Source of the DNA: Escherichia coli
GTDB taxonomy: Bacteria; Pseudomonadota; Gammaproteobacteria; Enterobacterales; Enterobacteriaceae
NCBI RefSeq assembly: GCF_017348835.2
Contig: NZ_CP071375.1
Strand: one strand, 5' to 3'
Length of the DNA: 64,000 nt
In this document: positions 1-64,000 of the stretch, in pieces
How the letters are laid out: each line of letters begins with the position of its first letter
Numbering within the stretch: position 1 is the first letter of the stretch
Made by a program: the position numbers and the translations under genes
The notes under the pieces: model-generated
Databases searched by the model: none
Told to the model about the DNA's origin: nothing
Seen by the model: only the letters and a program-made list of their open reading frames with translations

Positions 1-148
1 AATTTACTTTTCTTTAACAGTTGATTCGTTAGTCGCCGATTACGACGGCATTAATGCGCAAATAAGTCGCTATACTTCGGATTTTTGCCATGCTATTTCT
101 TTACATCTCTAAAACAAAACATAACGAAACGCACTGCCGGACAGACAA

Positions 149-16741: not shown

Positions 16742-17261
16742 TCAGCAACCCCGGTATCAGTTCATCCAGCGCGGCTGCTTTGTTCATGGCTTTGATGATA
16801 TCCCGTTTCAGGAAATCAACATGTCGGTTTTCCAGTTCCGGAAAACGCCGCTGCACCGACAGGGGGATCCCGTCGAGAATACTGGCAATTTCACCTGCGA
16901 TCCGCGACAGCACGAAAGTACAGAATGCGGTTTCCACCACTTCAGCGGAGTCTCTGGCATTTTTCAGTTCCTGTGCGTCGGCCTGCGCACGCGTAAGTCG
17001 ATGGCGTTCGTACTCAATAGTCCCTGGCTGGAGATCTGTCTCGCTGGCCTGCCGCAGTTCTTCAACTTCCCGGCGCAGCTTTTCGTTCTCAATTTCAGCA
17101 TCCCTTTCGGCATACCATCTTATAACGGCGGCAGAGTCATAAAGCACCTCATTACCCTTGCCACCGCCTCGCAGAACGGGCATTCCCTGTTCCTGCCAGT
17201 TCTGAATGGTACGGATACTCGCACCGAAAATGTCAGCCAGCTGCTTTTTGTTGACTTCCAT
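16716..17261 (-). CDS. nohA: Small terminase subunit, Nu1 homologue
   Basis: 181 aa, [29 protein letters not shown]...; lambda-type cos immediately upstream. Confidence 0.85.
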
Positions 17262-17438
17262 TGTTCATTCCACGGACAAAAACAGAGAAAGGAAACGACA
17301 GAGGCCAAAAAGCCCGTTTTCAGCACCTGTCGTTTCCTTTCTTTTCAGAGGGTATTTTAAATAAAAACATTAAGTTATGACGAAGAAGAACGGAAACGCC
17401 TTAAACCGGAAAATTTTCATAAATAGCGAAAACCCGCG

Positions 17439-17450
17439 AGGTCGCCGCCC
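17439..17450 (-). other. Lambda-type cosN cohesive-end sequence (GGGCGGCGACCT on minus strand) with lambda right-end-like flank
   Basis: Exact 12-mer; flanks resemble lambda left and right ends as recalled. Confidence 0.75.
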
Positions 17451-41098: not shown

Positions 41099-43524
41099 AT
41101 GATGAAAATCCATACCACAGAGGCGCTCATGAAGGCTGAAATCAGCCGTAGAAGTCTGATGAAAACCTCCGCACTTGGCAGTCTTGCGCTGGCAAGCAGT
41201 GCTTTCACTCTGCCATTTTCCCAAATGGTCCGGGCGGCAGAGGCTCCGGTAGAAGAGAAAGCGGTCTGGAGTTCCTGCACCGTTAACTGCGGGAGCCGCT
41301 GTCTGTTACGTTTGCATGTGAAAGATGACACCGTGTACTGGGTGGAGTCTGATACGACAGGTGACGACGTCTACGGTAATCATCAGGTTCGAGCGTGTTT
41401 ACGCGGTCGCTCTATCCGCCGACGGATGAATCATCCTGATAGGTTGAAATATCCCATGAAGCGCGTCGGCAAGCGCGGTGAAGGTAAATTTGAACGGATA
41501 AGTTGGAACGAAGCCCTGGATACCATCAGTGATAATCTTCGGCGGATCCTAAAAGATTACGGCAATGAGGCTGTACATGTCCTGTACGGAACAGGTGTAG
41601 ATGGCGGAAACATCACCAACTCAAACGTCCCGTACCGTCTGATGAACTCTTGCGGTGGTTTTCTCAGTCGCTATGGCAGCTACAGTACCGCACAGATCAG
41701 TGCCGCATGAGTTATATGTTCGGTGCCAATGATGGCAACAGCCCGGATGATATCGCCAATACGAAACTGGTCGTTATGTTCGGAAATAACCCGGCAGAAA
41801 CACGGATGAGCGGCGGTGGTGTCACTTACTACGTCGAGCAAGCCCGCGAACGTTCAAACGCACGCATGATCGTCATCGATCCACGTTATAACGACACAGC
41901 TGCCGGGCGTGAAGATGAATGGCTGCCCATTCGCCCTGGCACCGATGGCGCACTGGCCTGTGCGATTGCCTGGGTACTGATTACTGAAAACATGGTCGAA
42001 CAGCCATTTCTCGACAAATATTGTGTTGGTTATGATGAAAAAACGCTGCCCGCCAACGCACCACGTAACGCGCATTATAAAGCCTATATTCTGGGCGAAG
42101 GGCCTGACGGCATAGCTAAAACGCCGGAATGGGCAGCAAAAATCACCAGCATCCCGGCAGAAAAAATTATCCAGTTGGCGCGAGAGATCGGTTCAGCAAA
42201 ACCTGCTTATATTTGTCAGGGTTGGGGGCCACAACGACACTCCAACGGCGAACAAACATCCCGCGCTATTGCCATGCTTTCCGTTCTCACCGGTAACGTC
42301 GGCATAAACGGCGGCAACTCAGGCGTACGCGAAGGTAGCTGGGATCTGGGGGTAGAATGGTTTCCGATGCTCGAGAATCCTGTTAAAACGCAGATTTCCG
42401 TCTTTACATGGACAGATGCCATCGACCATGGTAAGGAAATGACCGCGACCCGTGATGGTGTTCGTGGAAAAGAAAAACTGGATGTCCCCATCAAGTTTTT
42501 ATGGTGCTACGCCAGTAACACATTGATCAATCAACATGGTGACATCAATCACACCCATGAGGTGCTTCAGGATGACAGCAAGTGCGAGATGATTGTTGGC
42601 ATTGACCACTTCATGACTGCCTCGGCTAAGTATTGCGATATCCTGTTGCCCGACCTGATGCCAACAGAGCAAGAAGACCTTATCTCTCATGAATCTGCCG
42701 GGAATATGGGCTATGTGATCCTCGCCCAACCCGCAACCTCAGCAAAATTTGAACGCAAACCCATCTACTGGATGCTGAGTGAAGTCGCCAAACGCTTAGG
42801 ACCGGACGTTTATCAAACCTTTACTGAAGGTCGCAGTCAGCATGAATGGATCAAATATCTCCATGCGAAAACGAAGGAACGTAACCCTGAGATGCCCGAC
42901 TACGAGGAGATGAAAACAACCGGGATCTTTAAGAAAAAATGCCCGGAAGAACACTACGTCGCTTTCCGCGCATTCCGTGAAGATCCACAGGCAAACCCGT
43001 TGAAAACACCTTCGGGGAAAATCGAAATTTATTCTGAACGACTGGCGAAGATTGCAGATACCTGGGAATTGAACAAAGATGAAATTATTCATCCCCTTCC
43101 TGCGTATACCCCAGGTTTTGATGGCTGGGACGATCCCCTGCGGAAAACCTATCCACTGCAGTTAACGGGCTTCCACTACAAAGCGCGTACCCACTCCAGC
43201 TACGGCAATATTGATGTGTTACAGCAGGCCTGCCCACAAGAGGTGTGGATCAACCCCATTGATGCTCAGGCTCGCGGTATCCGTCATGGCGATACCGTAC
43301 GGGTATTTAACAATAATGGAGAAATGCTGATTGCCGCAAAAGTGACTCCGCGTATTCTGCCTGGCGTTACCGCCATCGGGCAAGGTGCGTGGCTTAAAGC
43401 AGATATGTTTGGTGACCGGGTCGATCACGGCGGCAGTATCAATATTCTGACCTCTCACCGCCCTTCACCGCTGGCAAAGGGAAACCCGTCGCACAGCAAT
43501 CTTGTCCAGATCGAAAAGGTTTAA
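41099..43524 (+). pseudogene. ynfF: Second DMSO-reductase-family catalytic subunit, split by a frameshift near 41706
   Basis: ORFs 41099-41710 and 41650-43524 are N- and C-parts of one ynfE paralogue; stop TGA at 41708-41710. Confidence 0.75.
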
Positions 43525-50243: not shown

Positions 50244-51496
50244 GTGAGCCGTACTACAACTGTTGATGGCGCTCCGGCAAGCGACACTGACAAGCAAAGC
50301 ATTTCTCAGCCAAATCAATTTATTAAACGCGGTACGCCGCAATTTATGCGCGTTACCCTGGCGCTGTTCTCTGCCGGACTGGCAACATTTGCACTTCTCT
50401 ATTGTGTACAGCCTATCCTTCCGGTGCTTTCGCAGGAGTTTGGCTTAACGCCCGCGAACAGTAGTATTTCACTGTCCATTTCCACGGCGATGTTGGCTAT
50501 TGGTTTGCTGTTTACTGGCCCCCTATCCGATGCCATTGGTCGCAAACCAGTGATGGTCACGGCGCTACTGTTGGCCTCCATTTGTACGTTACTTTCGACA
50601 ATGATGACCAGCTGGCACGGCATTTTGATTATGCGCGCCTTGATTGGGCTTTCGTTAAGTGGCGTGGCAGCTGTTGGCATGACTTATCTTAGCGAGGAAA
50701 TCCACCCCAGTTTCGTGGCCTTTTCGATGGGGTTGTATATCAGCGGCAACTCAATTGGCGGCATGAGCGGACGCTTAATTAGCGGTGTCTTCACGGACTT
50801 TTTCAACTGGCGAATTGCTCTGGCGGCAATCGGTTGTTTCGCGCTGGCCTCGGCGTTGATGTTCTGGAAAATCCTCCCGGAATCACGCCATTTTCGCCCG
50901 ACTTCGCTGCGCCCTAAGACGTTATTTATCAACTTTCGTCTGCACTGGCGTGACCGGGGATTACCGTTATTGTTCGCAGAAGGCTTTTTGCTGATGGGGT
51001 CGTTCGTCACGCTGTTTAATTACATCGGCTATCGGTTGATGCTCTCCCCCTGGCATGTCAGTCAGGCCGTGGTTGGCTTATTATCGCTGGCTTATTTGAC
51101 CGGTACATGGAGCTCACCCAAAGCCGGAACCATGACCACCCGCTATGGGCGTGGTCCAGTGATGTTGTTTTCGACGGGGTTATGCTGTTTGGTTTACTGA
51201 TGACCTTATTCAGCTCGCTGTGGCTGATCTTTGCCGGAATGTTACTCTTCTCAGCAGGATTCTTCGCAGCCCACTCAGTTGCCAGCAGCTGGATCGGCCC
51301 CCGCGCAAAACGCGCTAAAGGCCAGGCCTCCTCGCTGTATCTGTTCAGTTACTATCTGGGGTCGAGTATTGCCGGGACGCTGGGTGGTGTTTTCTGGCAT
51401 AACTATGGCTGGAACGGCGTCGGCGCATTTATTGCTCTGATGCTGGTCATTGCTCTGCTGGTCGGGACGCGTTTGCATCGTCGTCTGCACGCCTGA
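50244..51496 (+). pseudogene. ynfM: MFS transporter YnfM split by a frameshift near 51176-51179
   Basis: ORFs 50244-51200 and 51107-51496 are contiguous parts of one MFS protein in different frames; junction at a G4 run. Confidence 0.7.
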
Positions 51497-54456: not shown

Positions 54457-54621
54457 ATGGCAAAGCCGATCATCACGCTCAATGGCCTAAAAATCGTCAT
54501 TATGTTGGGAATGCTGGTCATTATTCTCTGCGGTATCCGTTTTGCCGCCGAGATCATCGTGCCGTTTATTCTCGCATTATTTATTGCTGTTATATATAAC
54601 TTATTTCACTTAACGCATTGA
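54457..54621 (+). pseudogene. tqsA: tqsA (AI-2 exporter) 5' fragment, truncated after codon 46 by an inserted element
   Basis: [46 protein letters not shown], then 8 unrelated codons and a stop; phage-like DNA follows. Confidence 0.8.
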
Positions 54622-55045
54622 TTTAATTAAATAATTTGCACCACAAAAAGTGCCAAAAATCGCAAAATGACTACACCAGTGACTACACCGTTCGGTGCAC
54701 CGTATGAAACAACGTGGAACAAATAGACACAAGAAATATACAGGCGGATCATCTTTCCAGGGGGAAGCGCACCAATTCATGAGGGGCGTTAATGTCGATA
54801 TGGGGATCCCCACCTACCGGAATTTTTTTCCGGTTAAACGTTAATCAGGCTGGTGGGCTTTACCTGTTCGGTAGGTGTTATGATTATCGTAATACCTTTC
54901 CCCCAATGGGGTAAAAGCATCAACCGTAACGAAAGTCGTTATGGTTGCCACCGATACCCCAAATTTGGGTATCACGAGTAAGCCCCAAAATCTGGGTGTT
55001 ACTCTTACTACCCAAACTACGGGTAGTTTCCGTAGTTTCATGGTC

Positions 55046-55065
55046 GAGTTGCAGATCTGCAACTC
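55046..55065. repeat. 20 bp perfect palindrome (gagttgcagatctgcaactc) within a repeat-rich stretch
   Basis: Read directly; neighbouring CCCAAA(N)GGGT-type repeats at 54957-55030. Confidence 0.6.
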
Positions 55066-55319
55066 CCCCATTAACCACAGGCGAATTTCCGCCTTCGGTC
55101 ATTCCTTAATCATCTGCGTAATCATAATGATTATTCAGCAAGCGCAATTTTGCGCTTTGCTTAAAGTTCAGCGAGTTACCGCGCCGACTTCCTCAAATTG
55201 AGGTTTCCGAAAATATCAGCGGGTTAGCGATTAAGCTGACCATTAATTAAACTGCGAAAATGTCGTAGTTGTGAGGGGTGTAGCCAACCCATTTTTGGGC
55301 CGTCGGGAATATCAACCAG

Positions 55320-55601
55320 TTACCGCCGCAACCGCTCCGGCTTCTTCCAGTGGTACGTTATTTTCTCCTTCTCCCGATACATCTCCACGCGGCGACGGTA
55401 GGCCAGCAACTCAAGAACTCTGGTTCGTATGTTGCGCATATCCACGGCATTAAGTTCTATACCATCACGGCGCATCACCTCCGCAACAACACGCGCATAA
55501 TTTTCAGCGGTCACGCTGTCCGGCTGCATGGCCTGTTCGTCAACCTGCTGGCTGATTCCGGCAACGCGGCGGATTAATCCCAGTATTTCGGCTTCTATCA
55601 T
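55320..55601 (-). CDS. Hypothetical protein (93 aa)
   Basis: ORF only. Confidence 0.3.
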   Translation of the reverse strand: MIEAEILGLIRRVAGISQQVDEQAMQPDSVTAENYARVVAEVMRRDGIELNAVDMRNIRTRVLELLAYRRRVEMYREKEKITYHWKKPERLRR

Positions 55602-55665
55602 TGTGCCCCCATCGTTCTGAAAGTCTGGTGTCGTCGGGTCCTTCCTGGAATTATGGCCCGTTACG

Positions 55666-55677
55666 GGGCGGCGACCT
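55666..55677 (+). other. Lambda-type cosN sequence GGGCGGCGACCT (plus orientation) with lambda-like cosB-type flank
   Basis: Exact 12-mer; downstream flank resembles the lambda left end as recalled (TTTATGAAAATTTT..., AAAAGAAACGACA). Confidence 0.7.
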
Positions 55678-55856
55678 CGCGGTTTTTATCTGTTTATGAA
55701 AATTTTTCTGGAAAAAGCATGTCGGTACTTCTCGAACATAACTATTTGTTTTTAAATAGATACACAATAAAAAGAAACGACACGGTAATCATCTAAAATG
55801 GCGATTTATGACGCTTTCATGTCGTTTCTCAGTTTTGTTCAATAATTGCGCGTCTG

Positions 55857-56369
55857 TTACTCGCCTTTCTTCTGTAGCAACTTTTCCGGTACGTTTCCGG
55901 TTGTTTCTTTCAAGTAATCAGCCAGTATCTGTGGGAGGTTGTCGGCAACTCTGGCACTGGCATTACAGGCTTTAACCACTTCCCTTTTAAGCCTATCCAG
56001 CATGGCGTGGGTAATCTGTGGGAAGCTCCTTTGCATAGTAAGCGGGAGGCTGTCCATGATTGATGAAATCTGACTCGCCAGCTTTGAAAGCGCGTACAGG
56101 CAAAACTCAGTATCAATCACGTCACCGCGATCGCGCTCGTTTTTAAGTTCCTGCGCCTCCGCCTGTGCTGTCAGTAATCTGATCCTGACTCGTAAGAGTT
56201 CATCATCATCAATATCGCCTTTGTCGTTTGTAAGCTGGCTAATTGCATTGTTAACCCTATTGTCTATCACGCTGGCAACATCGTAAAACGCCTCACGGCC
56301 TTTACGTTCAACGGGAGTCACTCCCCACTTGTCGAACGCTGTCGCACTTACACGGCAGCTTTTCGCCAT
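55857..56369 (-). CDS. Small-terminase (Nu1)-like protein with diverged N-terminal DNA-recognition region
   Basis: 170 aa; central/C-terminal region closely resembles NohA at 16716-17261 (LTAQAEAQELKNERD...); N-terminal ~45 aa diverged and shortened. Confidence 0.7.
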   Translation of the reverse strand: MAKSCRVSATAFDKWGVTPVERKGREAFYDVASVIDNRVNNAISQLTNDKGDIDDDELLRVRIRLLTAQAEAQELKNERDRGDVIDTEFCLYALSKLASQISSIMDSLPLTMQRSFPQITHAMLDRLKREVVKACNASARVADNLPQILADYLKETTGNVPEKLLQKKGE

Positions 56370-56399
56370 GTTTTTTTGTTCATCAGGTGCGATTTCATT

Positions 56400-56437
56400 A
56401 ATACACCAACTTAATTACTGCTTCAGGTTGGTGTATT
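56400..56437. repeat. 11 bp inverted repeat (AATACACCAAC N16 GTTGGTGTATT) between cos and the terS-like start
   Basis: Read directly; lies in the terS-like leader. Confidence 0.55.
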
Positions 56438-56531
56438 GTTTGCATCTTTCCCTTTTCATTCATAAAGATAGAGCAAACAACAAAACCACCACCACCCCCC
56501 TGAAAAGGCTCATAAATAGCGAAAAACCGCG

Positions 56532-56543
56532 AGGTCGCCGCCC
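56532..56543 (-). other. Second lambda-type cosN sequence (minus orientation), about 165 bp upstream of the terS-like gene
   Basis: Exact 12-mer AGGTCGCCGCCC on the plus strand; inverted relative to 55666-55677. Confidence 0.7.
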
Positions 56544-56604
56544 CGTAACGGGTCCATATGCCGGAAAGGTCCCGTAAAAAAAGCCGGATTTCTCCGGCCT
56601 TGTC

Positions 56605-57018
56605 TCAGATGGTTTTCAGTATGCGATCGATGTCGCCGTCATCGCCCTGGTTTCTGCCATCGTATGCCATGCCAGCTGATACGGCTTGCGGGCTGTGCAT
56701 GTCCATAAAGTTTTCAAAGGCTGCGGTAAGCTCTGGTGCAACCTTTGGGCGCTCCTGCTCTATGGTCATGTTCAGGATTTCACGAGCATTATCGACGCTA
56801 ATACATGGCACGTTTGCCATTGCACGTAACAGCGGCTGATAGTCTTTATGCTCATGAAGCGCCATAATCGCATCAGCGCGCGGCTTGTCCTGCTCTTCCA
56901 GTTTGTTTAGTTGATATACGGCCTCATAGGTTGATAAACCTCTGTCAGCCATTGCCCGCGCTTCGGCTTTAAATTTACTCGCCAGCGGTAGCGTCATGAT
57001 GCTTTCATTCGTTGCCAT
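56605..57018 (-). CDS. Hypothetical head-module protein (137 aa)
   Basis: ORF between the gpD-like and terS-like genes; no recognisable motif. Confidence 0.3.
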   Translation of the reverse strand: MATNESIMTLPLASKFKAEARAMADRGLSTYEAVYQLNKLEEQDKPRADAIMALHEHKDYQPLLRAMANVPCISVDNAREILNMTIEQERPKVAPELTAAFENFMDMHSPQAVSAGMAYDGRNQGDDGDIDRILKTI

Positions 57019-57030
57019 CGTTCCCCCTGC

Positions 57031-57430
57031 TTATCGGGCCAGCGGCTGAACGGATACGCCGGAACCCGCAAAGGCGGCGCATTTTTTCGCATCGGTGTCG
57101 ACGCTCTCAGGCCAGTTAACGGCGGCAATATTGAATATCCCCGTCTTGTAACACTGTGCTGATTTCTGCTTTGACGTGTCCACAGGATACGAAGTCAGAT
57201 AAACAGCCTTGCCAGATTCCTGACCATCCCACGGCTTAAACTCGCCATTGTCCGCCAGCATCAGCGGGGTAAATTCCTGAATAACGCCAGCATCAGCGGG
57301 GTAAATTCCTGAATAACGCCAGCATCAGCGGGGTAAATTCCTGAATAACGCCAGCATCAGCGGCAAAATGTACCAGCGTCGTGGCGACCTGCTGACTGCC
57401 TGCAAATAACTCAATGTATGGAGTGTCCAT
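57031..57430 (-). pseudogene. Lambda gpD-like head decoration gene disrupted by a 64 bp tandem duplication
   Basis: 5' part (MDTPYIELFAG...TPLML) and 3' part (ADNGEFKPWDG...YKTGIF...AFAG) resemble lambda gpD; frame is restored by removing two 32 bp repeat copies. Confidence 0.65.
57254..57363. repeat. Tandem repeat: 32 bp unit (gccagcatcagcggggtaaattcctgaataac) x3 plus a 14 bp partial copy
   Basis: Perfect copies at 57254-57285, 57286-57317, 57318-57349; partial at 57350-57363. Confidence 0.9.
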
Positions 57431-57441
57431 AGAATCCCCCG

Positions 57442-58497
57442 TTAAGCAATTTTGACAGTAACAAATTTGCGAATATCTGCCGGAACCGGCTGCGGTGCGC
57501 TGTGCGTCTGCACGTACTCAATCGCCGGATCTCCGTCCTCAATCCAGTTTTTCGGGTAGTACATGTTTTGCGTTGCCCCCGTTCTTACTGCGTCCTGATC
57601 CATAATCGCACCATAGGCCACCAGCCCTTTATTGTTGGTGTTGCCCAGGACAAGCAAATCAGGCTCAAGGAAATATTTTTCTGTGCCGTCGCTGTCAGTG
57701 TATTTGCCGGAATAGACGATAAGGGCCAGATCACCAAGATAGCCTTTAAAGCTCACCACTTCGCCCAGGTTTTTACATGCCAGCTCTGCGGCGGATTCTG
57801 AACCACGGGAGAGATCGTACAGTTCACGGAATTTTTTAAAGCTGCGTAACATGCGCCATACATCAACGCCCATAATCATGACGTTGGCGGGGCAACCTGC
57901 CTGATCTGCGTATAGTTCAATGTCATATATTGGGTCGTGTATGTCTTTATCCTGCTCAGACCATTTTTTACCGTCGGCCTGCTCTATGATGTTTTTTTCC
58001 GGTATCTTCCAGTCGATTTCATAGCGTTCTATGCCTTCGCCCTCAATGATGTTTTTTCCGGTCGTTACCGCATTCACCGCCAGCCATTCAACGTGTGCCT
58101 TAATGGCGTTTATCTGGCGGCGCATGTTGCCAGTAATCAGGCGCATACGGCGGTAGGTAGGATCGTTAAGCTGTGCCGGATCTTCTCCAGCCATGCGCAT
58201 TATTGTTTTTAATGGATCGATTTCGTGTTTTGGCTTCATGTAGCCAGGGCGGATAATGCTGGTTTCGTACCCTTTATCGCGCTGAACCTGGCTGCCAACC
58301 ATAGGCGAACAAAACGCCGACATAGTGACTTCTTCAATATCCAGGTTATCTAACATGATGTCCTGCGTGTTGAATGTCGCCACGTTCGGGAAAAACAGCG
58401 CGGTAAACAGCGGACTAAATTTAAATTCCGCAATATCCTCGCGATTCAGGTACGCGAAAAGCTGGTGTGTGTTAAGTGCTATTGCTTTGACTGCCAT
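57442..58497 (-). CDS. Major capsid protein, lambda gpE homologue
   Basis: 351 aa; shared blocks KFxPLF..LFF, PGYxKPKHE, DPxYRR, SxKGxxGDxAIVVYSG, YPKNW..GDPA, SAP with lambda gpE as recalled. Confidence 0.8.
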   Translation of the reverse strand: MAVKAIALNTHQLFAYLNREDIAEFKFSPLFTALFFPNVATFNTQDIMLDNLDIEEVTMSAFCSPMVGSQVQRDKGYETSIIRPGYMKPKHEIDPLKTIMRMAGEDPAQLNDPTYRRMRLITGNMRRQINAIKAHVEWLAVNAVTTGKNIIEGEGIERYEIDWKIPEKNIIEQADGKKWSEQDKDIHDPIYDIELYADQAGCPANVMIMGVDVWRMLRSFKKFRELYDLSRGSESAAELACKNLGEVVSFKGYLGDLALIVYSGKYTDSDGTEKYFLEPDLLVLGNTNNKGLVAYGAIMDQDAVRTGATQNMYYPKNWIEDGDPAIEYVQTHSAPQPVPADIRKFVTVKIA

Positions 58498-58736
58498 TAT
58501 TCGCCCCCATAATTTTTGTGCATCCCAAGCGCCGCAAGTAAATAAGATCGCACAAGTGAACCTATCGACGGCTCCGGCGTCATCAGCGGATCCAGTCCAG
58601 CCGCAACGCCAGCTTCATAGTTTTTTTTGTGGCGCTGCTTGAGCACCTCCACGATTTCGGGGCTTATGTACACCGAAACACCGCCTTTTTTCTCTTCAGC
58701 CATAGTAAGAAATTCCTCTTCGACTAAAAAAATCAT
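58497..58736 (-). CDS. Hypothetical protein
   Basis: ORF only; start may be an internal Met (MAEEKK). Confidence 0.3.
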   Translation of the reverse strand: MIFLVEEEFLTMAEEKKGGVSVYISPEIVEVLKQRHKKNYEAGVAAGLDPLMTPEPSIGSLVRSYLLAALGMHKNYGGE

Positions 58737-58954
58737 AACTGGATGTTTATCCAGTCCTGATTATAATCAGAATTGCATTTTATGCAATGATATTGAGTTA
58801 TGTTGCAAATTATGAAATGATTATCCCGATCACGAACGCCAGTGCATCCAAAAACCTCATATGCAAAAGCCCGATAAGAACCCTCTGACCTTATCGGGCT
58901 TTTTTTGGGCGCAAAAAAGCCGGATTGCTCCGGCTATGTGTGCTGTGTGCTGGC

Positions 58955-59179
58955 TCAGTCTCTGATCTCTTTCAGAAATTCTATCAATGCATCTATCTGT
59001 TCAGGATTTACCGCCAGCATTTCACCGGATAGAGCACATCTCACAAAACCATGCTGATCCTTTTCAATCAGTGCGCCCGTCTCCAGGAATGCGCGGTAAT
59101 CATTGATGCTCATCGTCTCCATGTTGTCAGCATGGTATTTATCACGCTGTTTTAATATCTCATCAAATTTCATCGGCAT
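58955..59179 (-). CDS. Hypothetical protein (74 aa)
   Basis: ORF only. Confidence 0.3.
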   Translation of the reverse strand: MPMKFDEILKQRDKYHADNMETMSINDYRAFLETGALIEKDQHGFVRCALSGEMLAVNPEQIDALIEFLKEIRD

Positions 59180-59305
59180 TGTTTTTTTCCTCTGTTGTGT
59201 CTGTTTGTTTCAGATAGTAACTATGCCTGACCGTGACGAAAACCCGGTAATGCGCCATACCGTTTCAACTGGTGCAAAAAAAGCCGTATTTCTCCGGCTG
59301 TTTGA

Positions 59306-59578
59306 TTAGCTGTCCTGGTAATTGCGCCATATTTCATCACCAGCACCATCTATACCCATTTCGGCATAAGTGCGATCGACTGCCTTTTTCAGGTCTCCGA
59401 AATTATCCGGCGGCTCCGGTGCCCTCTGTGCCTTCCTTGAACATTCCAGCCGTCGCATCGTGATGTGATGCCGTTCCTTGTCTGTCTCCACCAGCTGCAT
59501 GACTTCACCCCATCGCGCCGCCGCCCTCCGGTAAAAGCCTTTCGCCTCCAGTTCCTCCGCTATGCGGTCATGTACCAT
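59306..59578 (-). CDS. PerC-family transcriptional activator-like protein (Pch-like)
   Basis: MVHDRIAEELEAKGFYRRAAARWGEVM... resembles the PerC/Pch N-terminal signature from memory; start at the internal Met of the ORF. Confidence 0.6.
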   Translation of the reverse strand: MVHDRIAEELEAKGFYRRAAARWGEVMQLVETDKERHHITMRRLECSRKAQRAPEPPDNFGDLKKAVDRTYAEMGIDGAGDEIWRNYQDS

Positions 59579-59588
59579 CGTCACCCCC

Positions 59589-59999
59589 TCAGAACGAAAT
59601 ATCATCACCGTAAGGGTCATCGCCTCCCGCTGGTGGCTGATTACCCTGTGTGCCTGTGGTTTTGCGTCTGTTCCCGCCAGGAAGTGCCGCACGGGCACTG
59701 ATTACGCTGTCTGCAATAACCTGATAACCCTGCCGCGTTTCCCCATTCTGTCCGGTCCACTGGCTGACCTGCATCGTGCCGGATACGCTGGCAACGTCGC
59801 CTTTTTGATGTTTAGCCAGGAAGTCGGCCTGCTTACCAAATGCGATGACCGATAGCCATAACGTCGCCTGCCCATCCTGCGCCTGACTACATGGCAGCGA
59901 TACCGCCATACGCGCCAGCGTCATCGGTGTACCCTTGCTGGTCTGTTTTACCTGCTGGTCGTCCACCAGCCGCCCGTAAGCCGCTATCTGTGCTGTCAT
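59589..59999 (-). CDS. SSB-like single-stranded DNA-binding protein
   Basis: 136 aa with Gly/Pro-rich tail ending in the acidic DDISF (compare SSB DDIPF). Confidence 0.55.
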   Translation of the reverse strand: MTAQIAAYGRLVDDQQVKQTSKGTPMTLARMAVSLPCSQAQDGQATLWLSVIAFGKQADFLAKHQKGDVASVSGTMQVSQWTGQNGETRQGYQVIADSVISARAALPGGNRRKTTGTQGNQPPAGGDDPYGDDISF

Positions 60000-60304
60000 G
60001 CCGTCTGCTCTCCGGTTTTAACGTTGATGGTTGTTACCTGTTCCGCTTCGGCAATCTCCCGTTCTGTCAACGTGGCAAAGTTTGCCGCTGCTGTGGTCAT
60101 GAATGCGCTTATCAGTTCGGGATGCTCCTTCGCGTATCCTTCCCCCGCGTGGCGGTCTATCGTTCTGATTGCCACCTTTAAAGCCAGTTCAGCCATATCT
60201 AACGCCTTATATTTCGGCTCTGTTCTGTCTCTGCGTTTTTGGGTCATTTCTCGCAACCTCTCACTTTTTCGCCTCACTTTTTCAAGCGTCTCACTTCGTC
60301 GCAA
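59996..60304 (-). CDS. Hypothetical protein
   Basis: ORF overlaps the SSB-like start by 4 bp. Confidence 0.3.
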   Translation of the reverse strand: MRRSETLEKVRRKSERLREMTQKRRDRTEPKYKALDMAELALKVAIRTIDRHAGEGYAKEHPELISAFMTTAAANFATLTEREIAEAEQVTTINVKTGEQTA

Positions 60305-60447
60305 TTGGGATTTTTGGTTTTTCTATGTGTGTGTTTCATAAGTATTTTTTTACCCCTCACTTTTGAGGATGTATACAGGTAAAAAAGTGAGGGAGAGCAG
60401 GCTAATTTTGGCCCTCTTTCTATCCACCTCGCTTTTGCTCCTCACTT

Positions 60448-61854
60448 TTATAGCGGCGCTACATCATCCCCATCGATACGAATAACCCCATCTTTTTCCA
60501 GCTTGTACAGCCAGCGCCGGAAGTTTTTCATTTCATACCCCAGTTTTTTCATGTCATCACGTAACAGCGGGATCGTGCACTTGTCGCCGTTCTGTGTGCG
60601 TGAACGGATGCACCCCCATAGCGCGGTATGGTTTTCCGTCTTGTTCCCTGCCTCCTCGATGCGCTCCAGTTCTGCCGGTTCGCGTGGGATGTCAATCACC
60701 ACCATGGACACGATTTCTTCACCCTCAGGATCCGTAAATACCTCCACGCTCTTAAGGTCGTAGGCACTTTCTTTTGGCTCCTCCGCGTCCTTCATCTTCG
60801 TACATGCTGCAACCAGCGCCGTAGCCTCTGAATGTTCCCGACTGATTCGGAACTCAGCATCAAGCGCCGCACGGAATGCACTGGAACCCCGCGCCCCTTT
60901 CGTCTCATCCTTGCCGGAATGATGCACAACCAGAACCGTGGCCCCCGTGGCCTGCTTTATCGCGTCACACCCCTGGATAAACGCCCCCATGTCGCGGGAG
61001 TCATTTTCATCATGACCACCAAAGCAACGGGCCAGCGTGTCAATGACAATCATCCGCACCCTTTCGCCCGTTCTGTCCTGCACTAATCCGGCGGTCCTGA
61101 TAACCTGTTCCACATAGTCCGGCGATGCGGGGAATACTGGCGAATTGACGATACACAAATCAGTAACCGCCTTACCGTGGGTTATTTCCCATGCCTTAAC
61201 GCGGCGCTTTACGCCCATACTTCCTTCACCAGCAACATAGATAACCGCGCCTTTACACACCCTGCGGCCTCCCCATTTCATTCCAGTGGCAACATGACAC
61301 GCCCACGAAATGGCAAGGAACGACTTATAGGAACCGCTCGCCCCGTAGGTGCTGCATAATGCTTCCGCCGGAATAAGCCCCTTAATCACGTAGCTTTGCT
61401 GCGCGTCGAACCCTTCCGATCCCCATGAAATCGGTAGCGTGATTTTTTGTTTTCCTCCGTTCATGATCAGGCTTTCCCCTCTCTCCCATGTCTCCCGTAG
61501 CCGTGGAAGCTGGTCGGTCCATTTCTCCAGTAATTCGAAGTTTTCAGAAAGCAGCCGCGCTTCATGGACTCCGGCGATCGCCAGTTTTGTCGCTATGGTT
61601 AACAGCTGCGCTTCGTCAATATTTCCGGCGCGTATCACCGTTACCCTGTATCGCCCCTCATCAACAATCTGCAGGTTGTCCAGTTCGCTTAACTGATAAC
61701 GCCCCAGGTAAACGGGAGGCGTGGAGTCTCCCGCCTTTTTGGCCTGTGCAATGATGTAGTGCTCTGCAAATGAGTGCGCATCATTCCCCGCGAAAATAAT
61801 TGCTTCGGTGTGTTTGTCTTTCGGTAATAGTTTTACGTTCGGTGCCAGTTTCAT
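60448..61854 (-). CDS. RecA-fold AAA ATPase (RepA/DnaB-like replication protein)
   Basis: 468 aa; Walker A GASGSYKS; Walker-B-like MIVIDTL; C-terminal wHTH-like region. Confidence 0.7.
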   Translation of the reverse strand: MKLAPNVKLLPKDKHTEAIIFAGNDAHSFAEHYIIAQAKKAGDSTPPVYLGRYQLSELDNLQIVDEGRYRVTVIRAGNIDEAQLLTIATKLAIAGVHEARLLSENFELLEKWTDQLPRLRETWERGESLIMNGGKQKITLPISWGSEGFDAQQSYVIKGLIPAEALCSTYGASGSYKSFLAISWACHVATGMKWGGRRVCKGAVIYVAGEGSMGVKRRVKAWEITHGKAVTDLCIVNSPVFPASPDYVEQVIRTAGLVQDRTGERVRMIVIDTLARCFGGHDENDSRDMGAFIQGCDAIKQATGATVLVVHHSGKDETKGARGSSAFRAALDAEFRISREHSEATALVAACTKMKDAEEPKESAYDLKSVEVFTDPEGEEIVSMVVIDIPREPAELERIEEAGNKTENHTALWGCIRSRTQNGDKCTIPLLRDDMKKLGYEMKNFRRWLYKLEKDGVIRIDGDDVAPL

Positions 61855-62150
61855 TTTTTACCCCTGAATACGTTAAGCATCTTTTTTATTTCCTGAATAT
61901 TGGCGCGTGCTTTCTCCCTGCTGGTTGGAACGTTACGCGGTACAGCCTGCACCAGAGAAAAATCACGGTCGAACTGATAAACAGGCATCACGCAATCATA
62001 TTCGTAGCCTTCACGACGGTAGGTTACGCGCCGTTCCTCCACGCCCTTAATCATTACCGTGCCGCCGTACTGGTCGCGGTAAATATCACCGCGCATGAAT
62101 TTAGTGCGAGTTTTGCCACTGGCAGTTAAGCCAGAATATTTAAGTTTCAT
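61851..62150 (-). CDS. Hypothetical protein (99 aa), translationally coupled to the ATPase gene
   Basis: Stop overlaps the ATPase start (ATGA). Confidence 0.3.
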   Translation of the reverse strand: MKLKYSGLTASGKTRTKFMRGDIYRDQYGGTVMIKGVEERRVTYRREGYEYDCVMPVYQFDRDFSLVQAVPRNVPTSREKARANIQEIKKMLNVFRGKK

Positions 62151-62155
62151 TATTT

Positions 62156-62389
62156 TTATTCTCCGGTGTGCTGTTCTTTATATCTGTCGTGCAATAGATC
62201 TATTTCTTGCAGTTCCATTATTACATGCTCAAGAATCGTTATTAATGCCGTGGCAATTCTTGATTTTTGTTTGTCGCGTTCATTGTCGCCAAGTGTTTCA
62301 AGCCATATGCGCAATATTTCCAGCATGTTTTCACTGTGAGAAAGTGCAAGAAATGCGCGGTCTATTGTTTCGAGGTAAATATCACGCAT
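62156..62389 (-). CDS. Hypothetical small helical protein (77 aa)
   Basis: ORF; starts MRDI. Confidence 0.3.
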   Translation of the reverse strand: MRDIYLETIDRAFLALSHSENMLEILRIWLETLGDNERDKQKSRIATALITILEHVIMELQEIDLLHDRYKEQHTGE

Positions 62390-62390
62390 A

Positions 62391-62612
62391 TTAATCCCCG
62401 TCCGTTGTTTTTCTTAAAATAACTTCTGTCACGAAATCAGCATAGTTAGCGGCAATATCAAGAATATTTAGCCCTGTATCTCTGTGCTCATCAGTGCAAA
62501 GAAAGAAAAAAGCCACCCGCATAATTTCAGATATTGACGAAAGCGCATCAGCCGCATCATCAGGAACGCCGGAAAATTCTTGTTTCAGGGAATTAAAACG
62601 ATCATCACGCAT
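62391..62612 (-). CDS. Hypothetical small protein (73 aa from MRDD)
   Basis: ORF; possible paralogue of neighbours. Confidence 0.3.
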   Translation of the reverse strand: MRDDRFNSLKQEFSGVPDDAADALSSISEIMRVAFFFLCTDEHRDTGLNILDIAANYADFVTEVILRKTTDGD

Positions 62613-62877
62613 AACCCCCCCCATTTTCATAATCTGCAACAAGAATATTTTTAGCGTCATTCAGCGACCGCGTGGCGGTGTATCGGATACATTCCAGGGC
62701 GAACAATGTGTATTCCTCCCGTTCTTCCTTTTGTGCAAGCTCTGCCGTGCATTCAATATCAATAAGCGCGTGCATCAGCGTAGTGAGTGCGGCTGCGTCC
62801 GGACGGATGTTATTGCACATGGTGTACCCCTCCGCATTTTTTTTCGTTAGAAATAAGCGTTCTTCTTTCCTGTTCAT
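62605..62877 (-). CDS. Hypothetical small protein
   Basis: ORF; start uncertain. Confidence 0.25.
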   Translation of the reverse strand: MNRKEERLFLTKKNAEGYTMCNNIRPDAAALTTLMHALIDIECTAELAQKEEREEYTLFALECIRYTATRSLNDAKNILVADYENGGGYA

Positions 62878-63043
62878 CGCTCAGGAATACGCAGACCTCA
62901 CCGCTAAGGCGTTTAAGTAAGCCGATGATTGCCCCTGATTCGCTGTCGGTCATCATGCCAGGGTAATCCTCTGCCAGTGCGCAAATAACTTCGATTTGGT
63001 GGGCGCGTTCTGCTGCCTGTTGTAGTGTGATTTCCTGGCTCAT
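62810..63043 (-). CDS. Hypothetical small protein (77 aa from MSQEIT), first gene of the leftward operon
   Basis: ORF. Confidence 0.3.
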   Translation of the reverse strand: MSQEITLQQAAERAHQIEVICALAEDYPGMMTDSESGAIIGLLKRLSGEVCVFLSDEQERRTLISNEKKCGGVHHVQ

Positions 63044-63327
63044 AAGCCTACCCCCTGGCGAATACGGGCGGCGAATACAGCAACACAACCTGACGGGCAA
63101 CGGTTACGCGCTTCGCGTTCCGTCCAGGCGGTTACGTGGATTATTTGAGATTCTCCGGCACTCAGTGCCAGAAAACGCCACACAAAGGCCGTTTGTGTGT
63201 GTACAAGGTGTGGTATATGATTTACAGCAACCATAACGGCTCCTAGTTTACGTTGTTGGTTAGAAGCCCTGCGAGTGGTAACGACACTTGCGGGGCTTTG
63301 TCTTTTCATCGATTACCTTGATAAAGG

Positions 63328-63407
63328 TGTCAGCCACTATATTAGTAACGGGTGTCAGCCACGTCAATAGTGTTTTTCCGTTTTCTTGTGTGTATACTGT
63401 CAGCCAC
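63328..63407 (+). promoter_or_regulatory. Three direct repeats of TGTCAGCCAC with a TATACT -10-like hexamer: candidate operator/promoter
   Basis: Repeats at 63328-63337, 63353-63362 and 63398-63407; TATACT at 63392-63397. Confidence 0.55.
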
Positions 63408-63428
63408 CTAATAACGAGGAAATCAGAT

Positions 63429-63608
63429 ATGGCAACAAAAGCAGTTAATGCAAAATCCAAAAAGCTTGAGGCTCGAGTACCACACGCAATAGCTGATGCT
63501 GTAGAAAATTTAAAGGAAGATGGCGAAAGTACAGGGCAATTTATCGTTTCGGCACTTGAAGGCGAGATCAAACGCCGCCAGCGCCGCAAGGCCAAAGAAT
63601 CAGAATAA
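63429..63608 (+). CDS. Small basic DNA-binding-like protein (possible ribbon-helix-helix regulator)
   Basis: 59 aa from MATKAVNAKSKKLEARVPHAIADAVENLKEDGE... Confidence 0.45.
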   Translation: MATKAVNAKSKKLEARVPHAIADAVENLKEDGESTGQFIVSALEGEIKRRQRRKAKESE

Positions 63609-63650
63609 TCACTATCAGCGCCGTGGTGTGAGGTATTACGGCGCATTGCT

Positions 63651-63839
63651 ATGCAGGACAACACAATGACCGATAAAGAATTGACCAAAACATTATCACC
63701 GGCACGGAAAAGACGGCGCAGAAAGATAGAACATGAATCAGAAAGATTCGCGCCATGTGCTTTTGCCCTTGAGCAATTCCTTAAAGAGTACAGGGAAAAG
63801 CGCTCATTGCAGGTATGGCAACGAACTGAACCAGACTGA
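63651..63839 (+). CDS. Hypothetical small basic protein
   Basis: ORF with RRRRK stretch. Confidence 0.3.
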   Translation: MQDNTMTDKELTKTLSPARKRRRRKIEHESERFAPCAFALEQFLKEYREKRSLQVWQRTEPD

Positions 63840-63935
63840 TTGCATTGCCCACCAGCCTGATAGCGGCTATCATCCCCGTGCTTATGTTTGGGATCACACA
63901 CACAAACGGCGCAGCGGGTTATCTGTTCAGAAAGG

Positions 63936-63962
63936 CGGCTCCATTTCGGGGCCGCTTTTTTT
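63936..63962 (+). terminator. Rho-independent terminator
   Basis: cggctcc atttc ggggccg stem followed by T7. Confidence 0.55.
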
Positions 63963-64000
63963 ATGCCTGAAAAACCCCAATTTTGTGGTTTTCCAGTCTC

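What the first reader, a model, noticed from the sequence alone, without database searches (positions are those of the whole stretch)
55666..56543. Two inverted lambda-type cosN sequences flank a terS-like gene with a diverged DNA-recognition N-terminus
GGGCGGCGACCT occurs at 55666-55677 on the plus strand with a lambda-like cosB-type flank, and inverted at 56532-56543 about 165 bp upstream of the terS-like gene. The TerS-like protein keeps the Nu1 central and C-terminal regions but has a shortened, diverged N-terminus where Nu1 binds cosB. An 11 bp inverted repeat (AATACACCAAC N16 GTTGGTGTATT, 56400-56437) sits between that cos and the gene. One reading is a packaging module with altered specificity alongside a helper-type cos, as in satellites that redirect helper terminase.
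Basis: partly seen in the sequence, partly recalled or inferred. Interest (0 to 1): 0.75.

Follow-up and report, generated by a model that had tools for sequence, protein, structure and literature searches.

The report
Known E. coli phage satellite, two cos sites
This is the packaging end of a well-known kind of E. coli phage satellite (a PICI of the EcCICFT073 family). It carries its own small-terminase gene between a satellite-specific cos site and an inverted cos site that looks like a phage's. The layout is real, but it has already been described.

Summary
GGGCGGCGACCT lies at 55666-55677 (+) and 56532-56543 (-), inside 72-nt inverted arms, and the 11-bp inverted repeat is at 56400-56437.

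The region is the packaging end of an ~11.5-kb PICI satellite inserted in tqsA. It is 84-93% identical to the experimentally studied EcCICFT073, whose published cos1 and cos2 flank rppA in the same inverted layout. Here rppA is replaced by a Nu1-family terS.

The "shortened N-terminus" comes from a 1-nt deletion in a poly-A run (7 A here, a run 1 nt longer in six relatives). The intact protein is 180 aa. Its winged-HTH domain is 62% identical to phage N15 gp1.

- **Proximal cos:** its cosB matches no phage. It is the only cos kept in four divergent terS satellites checked, and also in an Enterobacter one. I read it as the satellite TerS's own site.
- **Distal cos:** it has a canonical phage R3-I1-R2-R1 cosB. 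Its R repeats change in concert between satellite variants while TerS stays ~98% identical. I read it as a site for a helper phage's own terminase.

TerS-encoding E. coli PICIs (IHE3034, 18098) are already published. The terS cassette is in 593 of 5426 complete E. coli genomes.

Verdict: already described, low to moderate interest. The one useful lead concerns the open question of why PICIs carry two cos sites.

The parts
54594..64000 (-). PICI-type phage satellite inserted in tqsA. Only the left ~9.4 kb is in the window. The integrase and attR lie ~0.7-2 kb beyond the window end, for a total of ~11.5 kb.
   Evidence: The RefSeq annotation of the identical strain PE164 shows int, an HTH regulator, a RepA-type helicase, SSB, PerC, capsid, decoration protein and terS between two halves of tqsA. 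The att core GCTGTTAT is at 54586-54593. The element is 84-93% identical to EcCICFT073 outside the cassette.
55320..55601 (-). Conserved 93-aa gene of unknown function, the last gene of the satellite. It is homologous to the gene after cos2 in EcCICFT073.
   Evidence: PHROG 1561, E=1e-54. 90% nucleotide identity to L004 38263-38667.
55630..55840 (+). Distal cos, the homologue of EcCICFT073 cos2. It comprises cosQ-like sequence at 55630-55645, cosN at 55666-55677, and a phage-type cosB: R3 CATGTCGG 55718-55725 (+), an I1-like AT-rich spacer, R2 CGTGTCGT 55777-55784 (-), R1 CATGTCGT 55818-55825 (+). It points towards higher coordinates, which is antisense to terS.
   Evidence: the R elements lie at bp 53/112/153 from cosN, the same positions as in lambda, phi4 and PhiR5_1. 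83% identity to the phage PhiR5_1 cos through R3-I1. The first 76 nt after cosN (through R3 into I1) match, at about 88-89% in the listed hits, sites in roughly 1100 further E. coli genomes, including the phi4 prophage cos of CFT073.
55857..56398 (-). Satellite small-terminase gene (Nu1 family, N15-type DNA-binding domain). It is frameshifted in this copy by loss of one A in the run at 56371-56377. The 170-aa ORF 55857-56369 is the part after the frameshift.
56399..56579 (-). Proximal cos, the homologue of EcCICFT073 cos1. It comprises cosQ-like sequence at 56564-56579, cosN at 56532-56543, and a satellite-specific cosB. That cosB has a conserved GGTGGTGGTGGTTTTGTTGTTT block at 56476-56497 (bp 47-68 from cosN, overlapping the position of N15 R3). 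The two GTTGGTG-containing arms of the 11-bp inverted repeat are at 56400-56410 and 56427-56437. The site is co-oriented with terS, as cosN-cosB-Nu1 is in lambda.
   Evidence: the block is conserved in E. coli satellites and in an Enterobacter satellite whose TerS is 58% identical. There is no phage match beyond about 35 nt past cosN. It is the only cos present in L007-L010 and L013. N15 R3 is at bp 48-60 (PMC9026076).
56605..57018 (-). 137-aa protein resembling the C-terminal (scaffold-like) part of lambda-type head maturation protease. It is homologous to the EcCICFT073 gene upstream of cos1.
   Evidence: PHROG 1999, E=4e-65. PHROG 53 'head maturation protease', profile positions 495-567, E=2e-10.
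57031..57430 (-). Head-decoration (gpD-like) gene, disrupted by a 32-bp tandem repeat at 57253-57363.
   Evidence: PHROG 49. Repeat family D1. PGAP flags the gene as 'frameshifted'.
57442..58497 (-). Major capsid protein (gpE-like) of the satellite, homologous to c1499 of EcCICFT073.
   Evidence: PHROG 29, E=1e-106.

Best explanation
The region is the DNA-packaging cassette of an integrated PICI satellite of the EcCICFT073 family. It holds two complete cos sites (cosQ-cosN-cosB) in inverted orientation around one specificity gene.

Shown:
- The cassette between the two cosN sequences is a swappable module. Homology to EcCICFT073 stops just inside each cos. EcCICFT073 has rppA there; this element has a Nu1-family terS.
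- The intact TerS is 180 aa and looks like a domain mosaic. The DNA-binding domain is closest to N15 gp1. The oligomerisation and C-terminal (TerL-binding) parts are closest to a lambdoid TerS of the PhiR5_1 type.
- The proximal cos has lambda-like cosQ and cosN but a cosB that is private to the satellites.
- The distal cos has a canonical phage cosB.

Inferred mechanism:
1. After induction by a lambdoid helper, the satellite TerS binds the proximal cosB. The candidate site is the GGT/GTT-repeat block at bp 47-68, at the position of N15 R3.
2. Through its Nu1-like C-terminus, TerS recruits the helper's large terminase. That enzyme nicks cosN and packages satellite concatemers towards terS.
3. 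This is the cos-phage counterpart of SaPI TerS redirection. It needs no Rpp bridge, because the protein keeps its own TerL-binding end.
4. The distal cos lets a helper's unmodified TerS-TerL package the satellite in the opposite direction.
5. Because termination needs cosQ-cosN met in the forward order, the inverted orientation should stop each cos from ending packaging runs started at the other one 870 bp away.

In this copy terS is frameshifted and the decoration gene is disrupted. The element as sequenced is therefore probably partly decayed, or the assembly carries homopolymer errors.
For: Identity as a PICI:
- Gene content and insertion in tqsA.
- 84-93% nucleotide identity to EcCICFT073, with the break points at window 55712 and 56502.
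- EcCICFT073 has cosN at L004 37559 (+) and 38298 (-) around rppA. The published cos1 and cos2 sequences correspond to these two sites. Both were shown to be functional.

TerS:
- PHROG, Pfam and BLAST matches.
- Frameshift versus six relatives; intact 180-aa proteins.
- The best phage relative is N15 gp1 at 46%.
- DNA-binding domain: 28/45 identical to N15 against 17/40 to lambda. C-terminal part: 21/40 identical to PhiR5_1 TerS against 13/41 to lambda or N15.
- It has the same two deletions as N15 relative to lambda.
- AlphaFold2 gives a helix-turn-helix, beta-hairpin, helix order in residues 5-56.
- A profile built from satellite proteins only finds lambda TerS 1-98 (6hn7_B) as its best PDB hit (E=0.006) and does not find RppC.
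- P156 and Y162 in the C-terminal tail are nearly invariant across satellite, N15 and lambdoid TerS.

Proximal cos belongs with the satellite TerS:
- It is present next to terS in 8 of 8 loci where a cosN was found. These include four E. coli loci and one Enterobacter locus that have no distal cos.
- The block TGGTGGTGGT(G/T)TTGTTGTT is conserved even where TerS is only 58% identical.
- No phage DNA matches the proximal cosB.

Distal cos is of phage type:
- R elements at bp 53 (+), 112 (-) and 153 (+), as in lambda and phi4.
- 83% identity to the PhiR5_1 cos.
- The O157 variant has TCAGATCC three times at the same positions, while its TerS differs at 4 of 180 residues.
- EcCICFT073 cos2 is 97% identical over 135 nt to the cosB of phage PhiR12_1, which lies directly upstream of that phage's Nu1 gene.
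Against: - No experiment here shows cleavage, binding or packaging.
- In Fillol-Salom 2018 the TerS-encoding islands of IHE3034 and 18098 transferred poorly or not at all after induction of resident prophages. So a working helper and TerS function are unproven.
- The terS in the window is frameshifted.
- The candidate TerS binding site is inferred from conservation and position only. Aligned with gaps, the TTGTTGTT core lies about 9 bp further from cosN than in N15.
- The AlphaFold2 model is of moderate quality (pLDDT 73, pTM 0.34), and the whole-chain fold search gave no significant hit.
- The strain's own genome shows no second copy of the window-type distal cosB (one place in the PE164 record). 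No matching resident helper is therefore evident.
- The rule that an inverted cos cannot terminate packaging rests on my knowledge of lambda cosQ genetics. It was not tested here.
Confidence: 0.7

Rival explanations
1. The TerS-like protein works like an Rpp. It mainly heterodimerises with the helper's TerS, which blocks helper packaging, and the mixed dimer reads the proximal cosB. The helper TerS supplies the contact to TerL.
For: The gene sits exactly where rppA sits in EcCICFT073, between the same two cos sites. Its central oligomerisation region is 55-60% identical to lambdoid TerS proteins, so mixed oligomers are plausible. The Rpp mechanism is established for the sister elements.
Against: Unlike Rpp proteins (139-154 aa, no TerL-binding tail), this protein keeps the full Nu1 C-terminal region, with nearly invariant P156 and Y162. 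It has no detectable sequence similarity to RppA or RppC. The two modes are not mutually exclusive.
Confidence: 0.15
2. The distal cos is a non-functional scar of past recombination with a helper phage.
For: It is absent from the four divergent E. coli terS satellites checked and from the Enterobacter one. In EcCICFT073, deleting cos2 raised rather than lowered transfer by lambda and phi80.
Against: cosQ, cosN and all three R elements are intact and internally consistent in each variant. A decaying scar would not keep three matching R copies. In EcCICFT073, cos2 alone supported plasmid transfer, and the double deletion was needed to abolish island transfer.
Confidence: 0.1
3. The 72-nt inverted arms make the 0.8-kb cassette an invertible switch.
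For: Inverted repeats flank the cassette.
Against: terS has the same orientation relative to the flanking genes in every locus examined: the window, Nissle, O157 and L007-L010, and rppA likewise in CFT073. The related genomes listed align colinearly across the region. No recombinase is associated with the cassette, and the perfect core is only about 30 bp.
Confidence: 0.02
4. The region is simply the remnant of a defective lambdoid prophage, not a satellite.
For: It carries lambda-family capsid, decoration, terS and cos sequences.
Against: The element is about 11.5 kb. It has its own integrase, regulator and replicase and has no TerL, portal, tail or lysis genes. It is colinear with, and 84-93% identical to, EcCICFT073, a demonstrated helper-dependent satellite.
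Confidence: 0.03

Closest known systems
EcCICFT073, the model Gram-negative cos-type PICI (Fillol-Salom et al. 2018, PMC6092414; 2019, PMC6739421)
   Same: - Same gene order: int, regulator, replicase, SSB, PerC, capsid, decoration protein, 137-aa gene, cos, specificity gene, inverted cos, 93-aa gene.
- 84-93% nucleotide identity outside the cassette.
- Two inverted cosN sequences with lambda-like cosQ.
- The proximal site corresponds to published cos1 and the distal site to cos2.
   Different: - The specificity gene is a 180-aa Nu1-family TerS with a TerL-binding tail, not the 144-aa RppA.
- Both cosB segments differ from those of EcCICFT073.
- The insertion site is tqsA, not the CFT073 site, which lies between roxA and phoQ.
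TerS-encoding E. coli PICIs of strains IHE3034 and 18098 (Fillol-Salom et al. 2018)
   Same: The paper describes them as islands that 'encode TerS'. The published IHE3034 marker-insertion primer matches window 55803-55832 exactly over 30 nt, within the distal cosB R1 region. The IHE3034 island therefore carries this cassette.
   Different: In the text I could read, the paper reports neither their cos sites nor the TerS type. No helper was identified for them, and transfer was about 0-110 per ml.
Phage N15 gp1 and cosB-N15 (Feiss et al. 2015; Murialdo & Feiss 2022, PMC9026076)
   Same: - N15 gp1 is the closest phage TerS: 46% overall and 62% in the DNA-binding domain, with the same two deletions relative to lambda.
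- The conserved cosB block overlaps the position of N15 R3 (bp 48-60) and shares a TTGTTGTT core.
   Different: - The C-terminal half is closer to PhiR5_1-type lambdoid TerS than to N15.
- Here cosN is the lambda sequence.
- The proximal cosB also has two further GTTGGTG copies, at bp 111 (-) and 134 (+), which N15 lacks.
SaPI TerS redirection (pac-type staphylococcal PICIs)
   Same: In concept, a satellite-encoded small terminase pairs with the helper's large terminase and redirects packaging to satellite DNA. This rests on my own knowledge and on the summary.
   Different: That system uses pac/headful packaging, an unrelated TerS family and a separate Ppi inhibitor. There are no cos sites.

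Membership tests
Gram-negative PICI (EcCICFT073 type) | Small island (~10-15 kb) with its own integrase, at a specific chromosomal attachment site | tested here: met
   About 11.5 kb between the two halves of tqsA. The integrase is at L001 22273-23502, and the 8-bp core GCTGTTAT is present at both junctions.
Gram-negative PICI (EcCICFT073 type) | AlpA/HTH-type regulator plus its own primase/helicase replication module and origin | tested here: met
   HTH regulator and 'helicase RepA family' gene. The 468-aa protein hits PHROG primase/helicase families. Three 17-nt iteron-like repeats lie directly 3' of that gene. Origin function was not tested.
Gram-negative PICI (EcCICFT073 type) | Lacks the full set of phage structural, terminase-large and lysis genes | tested here: met
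   The only late-type genes annotated are capsid, decoration protein, the 137-aa scaffold-like gene and terS. There is no TerL, portal, tail or lysis gene.
Gram-negative PICI (EcCICFT073 type) | Helper-phage-dependent induction, replication and high-frequency transfer | not testable with these tools
   This needs induction and transduction experiments. It has been shown for the homologous EcCICFT073 but not for the TerS-type islands.
Rpp (redirecting phage packaging) proteins | 139-154-aa protein with sequence similarity to RppA/B/C and no TerL-binding C-terminal tail | tested here: not met
   The intact protein is 180 aa. PDB sequence searches gave no hit to RppC chains. The local alignment to RppA is only 5/24 identical. 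It keeps the Nu1 C-terminal region.
Lambda Nu1-family small terminase (Pfam PF07471) | Match to the family profile, an N-terminal winged HTH, a central helical oligomerisation region and a conserved C-terminal tail | tested here: met
   Pfam E=4.8e-22. PHROG 57 E=3e-48. The alignment with lambda, N15, phi4 and PhiR5_1 TerS covers the whole length. The predicted secondary structure fits. DNA binding and TerL binding were not tested.
Lambda-type cos site | cosQ, the 12-nt cosN, and a cosB with R3-I1-R2-R1 at fixed spacing | tested here: met
   Distal cos: cosQ-like sequence, exact cosN, and R elements at bp 53 (+), 112 (-) and 153 (+), as in lambda and phi4. Cleavage was not tested.
Lambda-type cos site | The same features, for the proximal cos | tested here: inconclusive
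   cosQ-like sequence and exact cosN are present. The cosB is unrelated to phage cosB. G(G/T)TGGTG copies at bp 48-54 (+), 111 (-) and 134 (+) mimic an R3/R2/R1 layout, but the third copy is not conserved in relatives.
Capsid-forming PICI (cf-PICI) | Encodes a complete head and packaging module (capsid, portal, protease, TerS and TerL, connectors) and takes only tails from the helper | tested here: not met
   No portal, TerL, protease or connector genes are annotated in the island.

The most novel reading that the evidence does not exclude
The second, inverted cos of these satellites may be an exchangeable helper-range module. Beside its private cos (read by Rpp or by the satellite's own TerS), each PICI lineage would carry a near-exact copy of one particular lambdoid phage's cosN-cosB.

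The supporting cases are:
- PhiR12-type in EcCICFT073 (97% identity).
- PhiR5_1/phage 21-type in this window.
- A TCAGATCC type in O157.

Unmodified helper terminase could then also package the satellite. The site would be kept inverted so that the two packaging series cannot terminate at each other.

[quoted passage not shown] It also predicts that the type of the distal cosB tracks the resident or locally common helper phages.
Probability: 0.45. Interest if true: 0.5.

Novelty: already known. Interest (0 to 1): 0.3.

Why it matters
As a discovery it matters little. PICIs with two cos sites are published, and small terminase is listed as a core PICI component.

Three points may still help people who work on these satellites:

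1. **The common form is the unstudied one.** At megablast sensitivity the terS cassette is about ten times more frequent in complete E. coli genomes than the studied rppA cassette: 593 versus 53 of 5426 genomes at ≥80% coverage. It is present in Nissle 1917 and O157:H7.
2. **Its TerS looks like a chimera.** An N15-type DNA-binding domain is joined to a lambdoid TerL-binding half. This suggests direct capture of the helper's large terminase, without the Rpp bridge.
3. **The distal cos sites have phage-type cosB.** EcCICFT073's published cos2 is 97% identical over 135 nt to a phage cosB. The window and O157 distal sites have three matching R repeats at the lambda positions. This gives a testable answer to why there are two cos sites. 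The papers described the PICI cosB sequences as 'completely divergent'.

Tried and rejected
- **Direct PDB sequence search** with the 170-aa ORF found nothing relevant, because the truncated N-terminus was used. A profile of intact satellite proteins then gave lambda TerS as the best, marginal hit.
- **Foldseek of the whole AlphaFold2 model** against the PDB gave no significant match. The best hits were MerR-like or helical proteins at E>0.3. The model is elongated and of moderate confidence, so I rely only on its secondary-structure order.
- **Two CFT073 regions fetched by guessed coordinates** were the phi4 prophage and unrelated chromosome. The phi4 cos proved useful later.
- **The 11-bp inverted repeat as a conserved RNA or DNA hairpin** is rejected. 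Predicted stability is -16 kcal/mol here but -3 to -9 in L007-L009, with non-compensated changes.
- **An invertible cassette** is rejected, because orientation is constant in all loci examined.
- **Programmed slippage at the A-run** is considered unlikely. In L007 and L009 the run is interrupted, yet the frame is kept.
- **An O157-type distal cosB in sequenced phages:** only a weak 72% hit, so its helper type remains unidentified.
- **Citrobacter homologues** (L016-L018) have no lambda-type cosN within one mismatch and were not pursued.
- **One literature search failed** on a term that was too short.
- **A paper on lateral transduction** contained nothing on cos PICIs.
Full report
**1. Observation**

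The 12-nt lambda cohesive-end sequence GGGCGGCGACCT occurs three times in the window: at 17439-17450 (-), 55666-55677 (+) and 56532-56543 (-). Shuffles give 0.21 expected, and none of 100 reached three.

- The first copy belongs to a Qin-type prophage remnant. Its cosB and nu1 closely match the lambda sequences printed in the supplements of the two PICI papers.
- The other two are the core of 72-nt inverted arms, 55635-55706 and 56503-56574 (81% complementary). Upstream of each cosN the arms include a cosQ-like GGGTCCTT(T/C)CC motif.
- The 11-bp inverted repeat reported at 56400-56437 is there.
- The ORF between the two cos sites, 55857-56369 (-), is a Nu1-family small terminase.

**2. What the element is**

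The window is 100% identical to the chromosome of E. coli PE164. In the RefSeq annotation, tqsA is split by an ~11.5-kb insertion. The insertion carries a tyrosine integrase, an HTH regulator, an Icd-like gene, a RepA-type helicase, SSB, PerC, major capsid, head decoration, a 137-aa gene, terS and a 93-aa gene. It has no TerL, portal, tail or lysis genes.

This is the gene order of EcCICFT073, the model Gram-negative PICI, which I located at L004 27931-39000. BLASTN gives 84-93% identity along the two elements. The exception is window 55713-56501, which has no counterpart in CFT073. In CFT073 that interval holds rppA (c1503, 144 aa).

EcCICFT073 has the same two exact cosN sequences in inverted orientation around rppA, at 37559 (+) and 38298 (-). 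They are the published cos1 (rpp-proximal) and cos2 (distal), as the sequences in Fig. S1A of PMC6739421 show. For EcCICFT073 it has been shown that:

- both sites support transfer;
- cos1 is needed and is stimulated by RppA;
- deleting cos2 increases transfer.

**3. The "shortened N-terminus" is a frameshift**

PGAP annotates the gene as "terminase small subunit, frameshifted", 55857-56398. In an alignment with six relatives, the window lacks one base in an A-run: 7 A at 56371-56377, where every relative is 1 nt longer.

Intact copies in Nissle 1917 and O157:H7 encode 180 aa, beginning MKSHLMNKKNMAKSCRVSATAFDKWGVTPVERKGREAFYD. The Nu1 gene of the Qin remnant in this window is 181 aa. The 170-aa ORF is therefore the part of the gene after the frameshift.

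PGAP flags four frameshifted genes in this 28-kb stretch, including the housekeeping genes ynfF and ynfM. An assembly error at the homopolymer cannot be excluded.

**4. What kind of TerS**

The closest phage protein among 50,697 phage records is N15 gp1, at 46% identity.

| Region (residues) | Closest relative | Comparison |
|---|---|---|
| DNA-binding domain (1-50) | N15 gp1, 28/45 identical | lambda, 17/40 |
| Middle region (51-125) | PhiR5_1 TerS, 41/68 identical | — |
| C-terminal part (126-168) | PhiR5_1 TerS, 21/40 identical | lambda or N15, 13/41 |

- The satellite proteins and N15 gp1 share two deletions relative to lambda, one in the wing and one after helix 3.
- AlphaFold2 (pLDDT 73) predicts strand, helix, helix, beta-hairpin, helix for residues 5-56. 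That is the winged-HTH order.
- A profile built only from satellite proteins finds lambda TerS 1-98 as its best PDB hit (E=0.006). It does not find RppC.
- A whole-chain Foldseek search was uninformative.

The protein is therefore a full-length Nu1-family TerS with an N15-type DNA-binding domain. It is not an Rpp. Rpp proteins are 139-154 aa and lack the TerL-binding tail.

**5. Which cos goes with which protein**

Proximal cos (56532, co-oriented with terS as in lambda):

- Phage DNA matches only cosQ-cosN and about 35 nt beyond. No phage matches its cosB.
- It lies next to terS in every locus where a cosN was found. That includes four diverged E. coli satellites (L007-L010, two of them embedded in prophage portal genes) and an Enterobacter satellite (L013, TerS 58% identical). 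None of these has a distal cos.
- Within the cosB, the block TGGTGGTGGT(G/T)TTGTTGTT is conserved even in L013, while the surrounding sequence diverges.
- That block spans bp 47-68 from cosN. It overlaps the position of N15's mapped R3 (bp 48-60, GAGGTTGTTGTTT) and shares its TTGTTGTT core.
Only the first is conserved. The second decays without compensation, and the predicted hairpin falls from -16 to between -3 and -9 kcal/mol in relatives.

Distal cos (55666):

- Its flank has the full lambda architecture, with R elements at bp 53 (+), 112 (-) and 153 (+) and an AT-rich I1-like spacer. These are the same positions as in lambda, phi4 and PhiR5_1.
- It is 83% identical to the cos of phage PhiR5_1 through R3-I1.
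- Its R3 is of the phi4 (phage 21) type. Similar sequence occurs in about 1100 other E. coli genomes, including the phi4 prophage cos of CFT073.
- The R motif changes in concert between satellite variants: CATGTCG(G/T) here, TCAGATCC three times in O157, and ATGTCCGGTT three times in EcCICFT073 cos2. Meanwhile the satellite TerS of Nissle (window-type) and O157 differ at only 4 of 180 residues.
- EcCICFT073 cos2 is 97% identical over 135 nt to the cosB of phage PhiR12_1, immediately upstream of that phage's Nu1 gene.

The distal sites therefore have phage-type cosB and are matched to phage TerS proteins, not to the satellite's protein.

**6. Mechanism: shown and inferred**

Shown by sequence: there are two complete cos sites of opposite polarity, a swappable cassette between them, a satellite-specific cosB linked to a satellite TerS, and a phage-type cosB on the other side.

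Inferred:

1. The satellite TerS binds the proximal cosB. Through its Nu1-like C-terminus it brings the helper's TerL to cosN, and packaging then proceeds towards lower coordinates.
2. A helper whose own TerS matches the distal R elements can start at the distal cos and package towards higher coordinates.
3. Lambda termination needs cosQ then cosN in the direction of travel (my knowledge of Feiss-laboratory work, not tested here). Each site would therefore be invisible as a terminator to runs started at the other, which would explain the inverted orientation.
4. An 11.5-kb unit would have to be packaged as a multimer in a lambda-sized head, as proposed for EcCICFT073.

Against over-reading: the published TerS-type islands transferred poorly. 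PE164 has no second copy of the window-type distal cosB. This copy's terS and decoration genes are disrupted.

**7. Comparison and novelty**

The element passes every sequence-testable criterion for a Gram-negative PICI. It fails the criteria for Rpp and for capsid-forming PICIs (see the membership table).

- TerS-encoding E. coli PICIs (IHE3034, 18098) were reported in 2018.
- The IHE3034 marker-insertion primer matches window 55803-55832 exactly, so that island carries this cassette.
- Small terminase is listed as a core PICI component by SatelliteFinder.
- The terS cassette is in 593 of 5426 complete E. coli genomes at ≥80% coverage, against 53 for the CFT073 rppA cassette.

The finding is thus a correct rediscovery of a known system. 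In the papers I could read, I did not see three points described:

- the N15-type/lambdoid chimeric nature of this TerS;
- the conserved R3-like block in the proximal cosB;
- the fact that cos2-type sites are canonical phage cosB sequences with concerted R variation.

The papers call the PICI cosB sequences "completely divergent". These are modest leads on the open two-cos question, not a new kind of system.

**8. Verdict**

Novelty: already known. Interest: 0.3.

Noticed in passing
window 15188-17450 (-): A Qin-type defective prophage remnant. It has an exact lambda cosN at 17439-17450, cosB closely matching lambda, a nu1 gene (16716-17261) and a truncated A-like ORF (15188-16741). It is the third cosN in the window and is unrelated to the satellite.
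   Followed up: partly
window 57253-57363: A 32-bp unit repeated about 3.4 times, perfectly, inside the satellite's head-decoration gene. It breaks the reading frame (PGAP: frameshifted). It is either a real duplication or a misassembly.
   Followed up: no
window 60265-60449: Three 17-nt repeats, TTTT(T/A/G)C(G/C/T)CCTCACTTTT, spaced 83-85 bp apart, directly 3' of the RepA-type helicase gene (60448-61854, -). This is the position where PICI replication origins with iterons are described.
   Followed up: no
window 56476-56497 versus L004 37612-37623: The terS-type proximal cos has GGTGGTGGTGG at bp 47-58 from cosN. The rpp-type cos1 of EcCICFT073 has CACCACCACCAC at bp 54-65, the segment Murialdo & Feiss proposed as R3-PICI. 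It is the same motif on the opposite strand. The significance is unknown.
   Followed up: partly
L004 38130-38297 (EcCICFT073 cos2) versus L019 (phage PhiR12_1): The cosB of the published cos2 site is 97% identical over 135 nt to the cosB of ECOR-derived phages PhiR12_1, _2, _4 and _5, including three ATGTCCGGTT repeats. The papers state that no phage cosB could be identified in EcCICFT073.
   Followed up: yes
window 54668-54690 and L001 23528-23550: A 23-bp direct repeat, TGACTACACCAGTGACTACACCG, lies just inside both ends of the satellite. These may be integrase arm-binding sites. The crossover core appears to be GCTGTTAT at 54586-54593.
   Followed up: no
window 56577-56603, 58913-58939, 59277-59303: Three copies (85-100% identical) of an AAAAAAGCCGGATTTCTCCGGC hairpin-containing sequence lie after satellite genes. 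On the minus strand they look like intrinsic terminators. One sits right next to the proximal cosQ.
   Followed up: no
window ~41650-41710 and ~51107-51200 (ynfF, ynfM): PGAP flags both housekeeping genes as frameshifted in this strain, in addition to the two satellite genes. That is four frameshifted genes in 28 kb, which hints at homopolymer or indel errors in the PE164 assembly.
   Followed up: partly
L008, L010 and L013-L015: Diverged terS-type satellites are inserted inside prophage portal or capsid genes. These are the helper-embedded satellites of PMC10111431. They carry only the proximal cos.
   Followed up: partly
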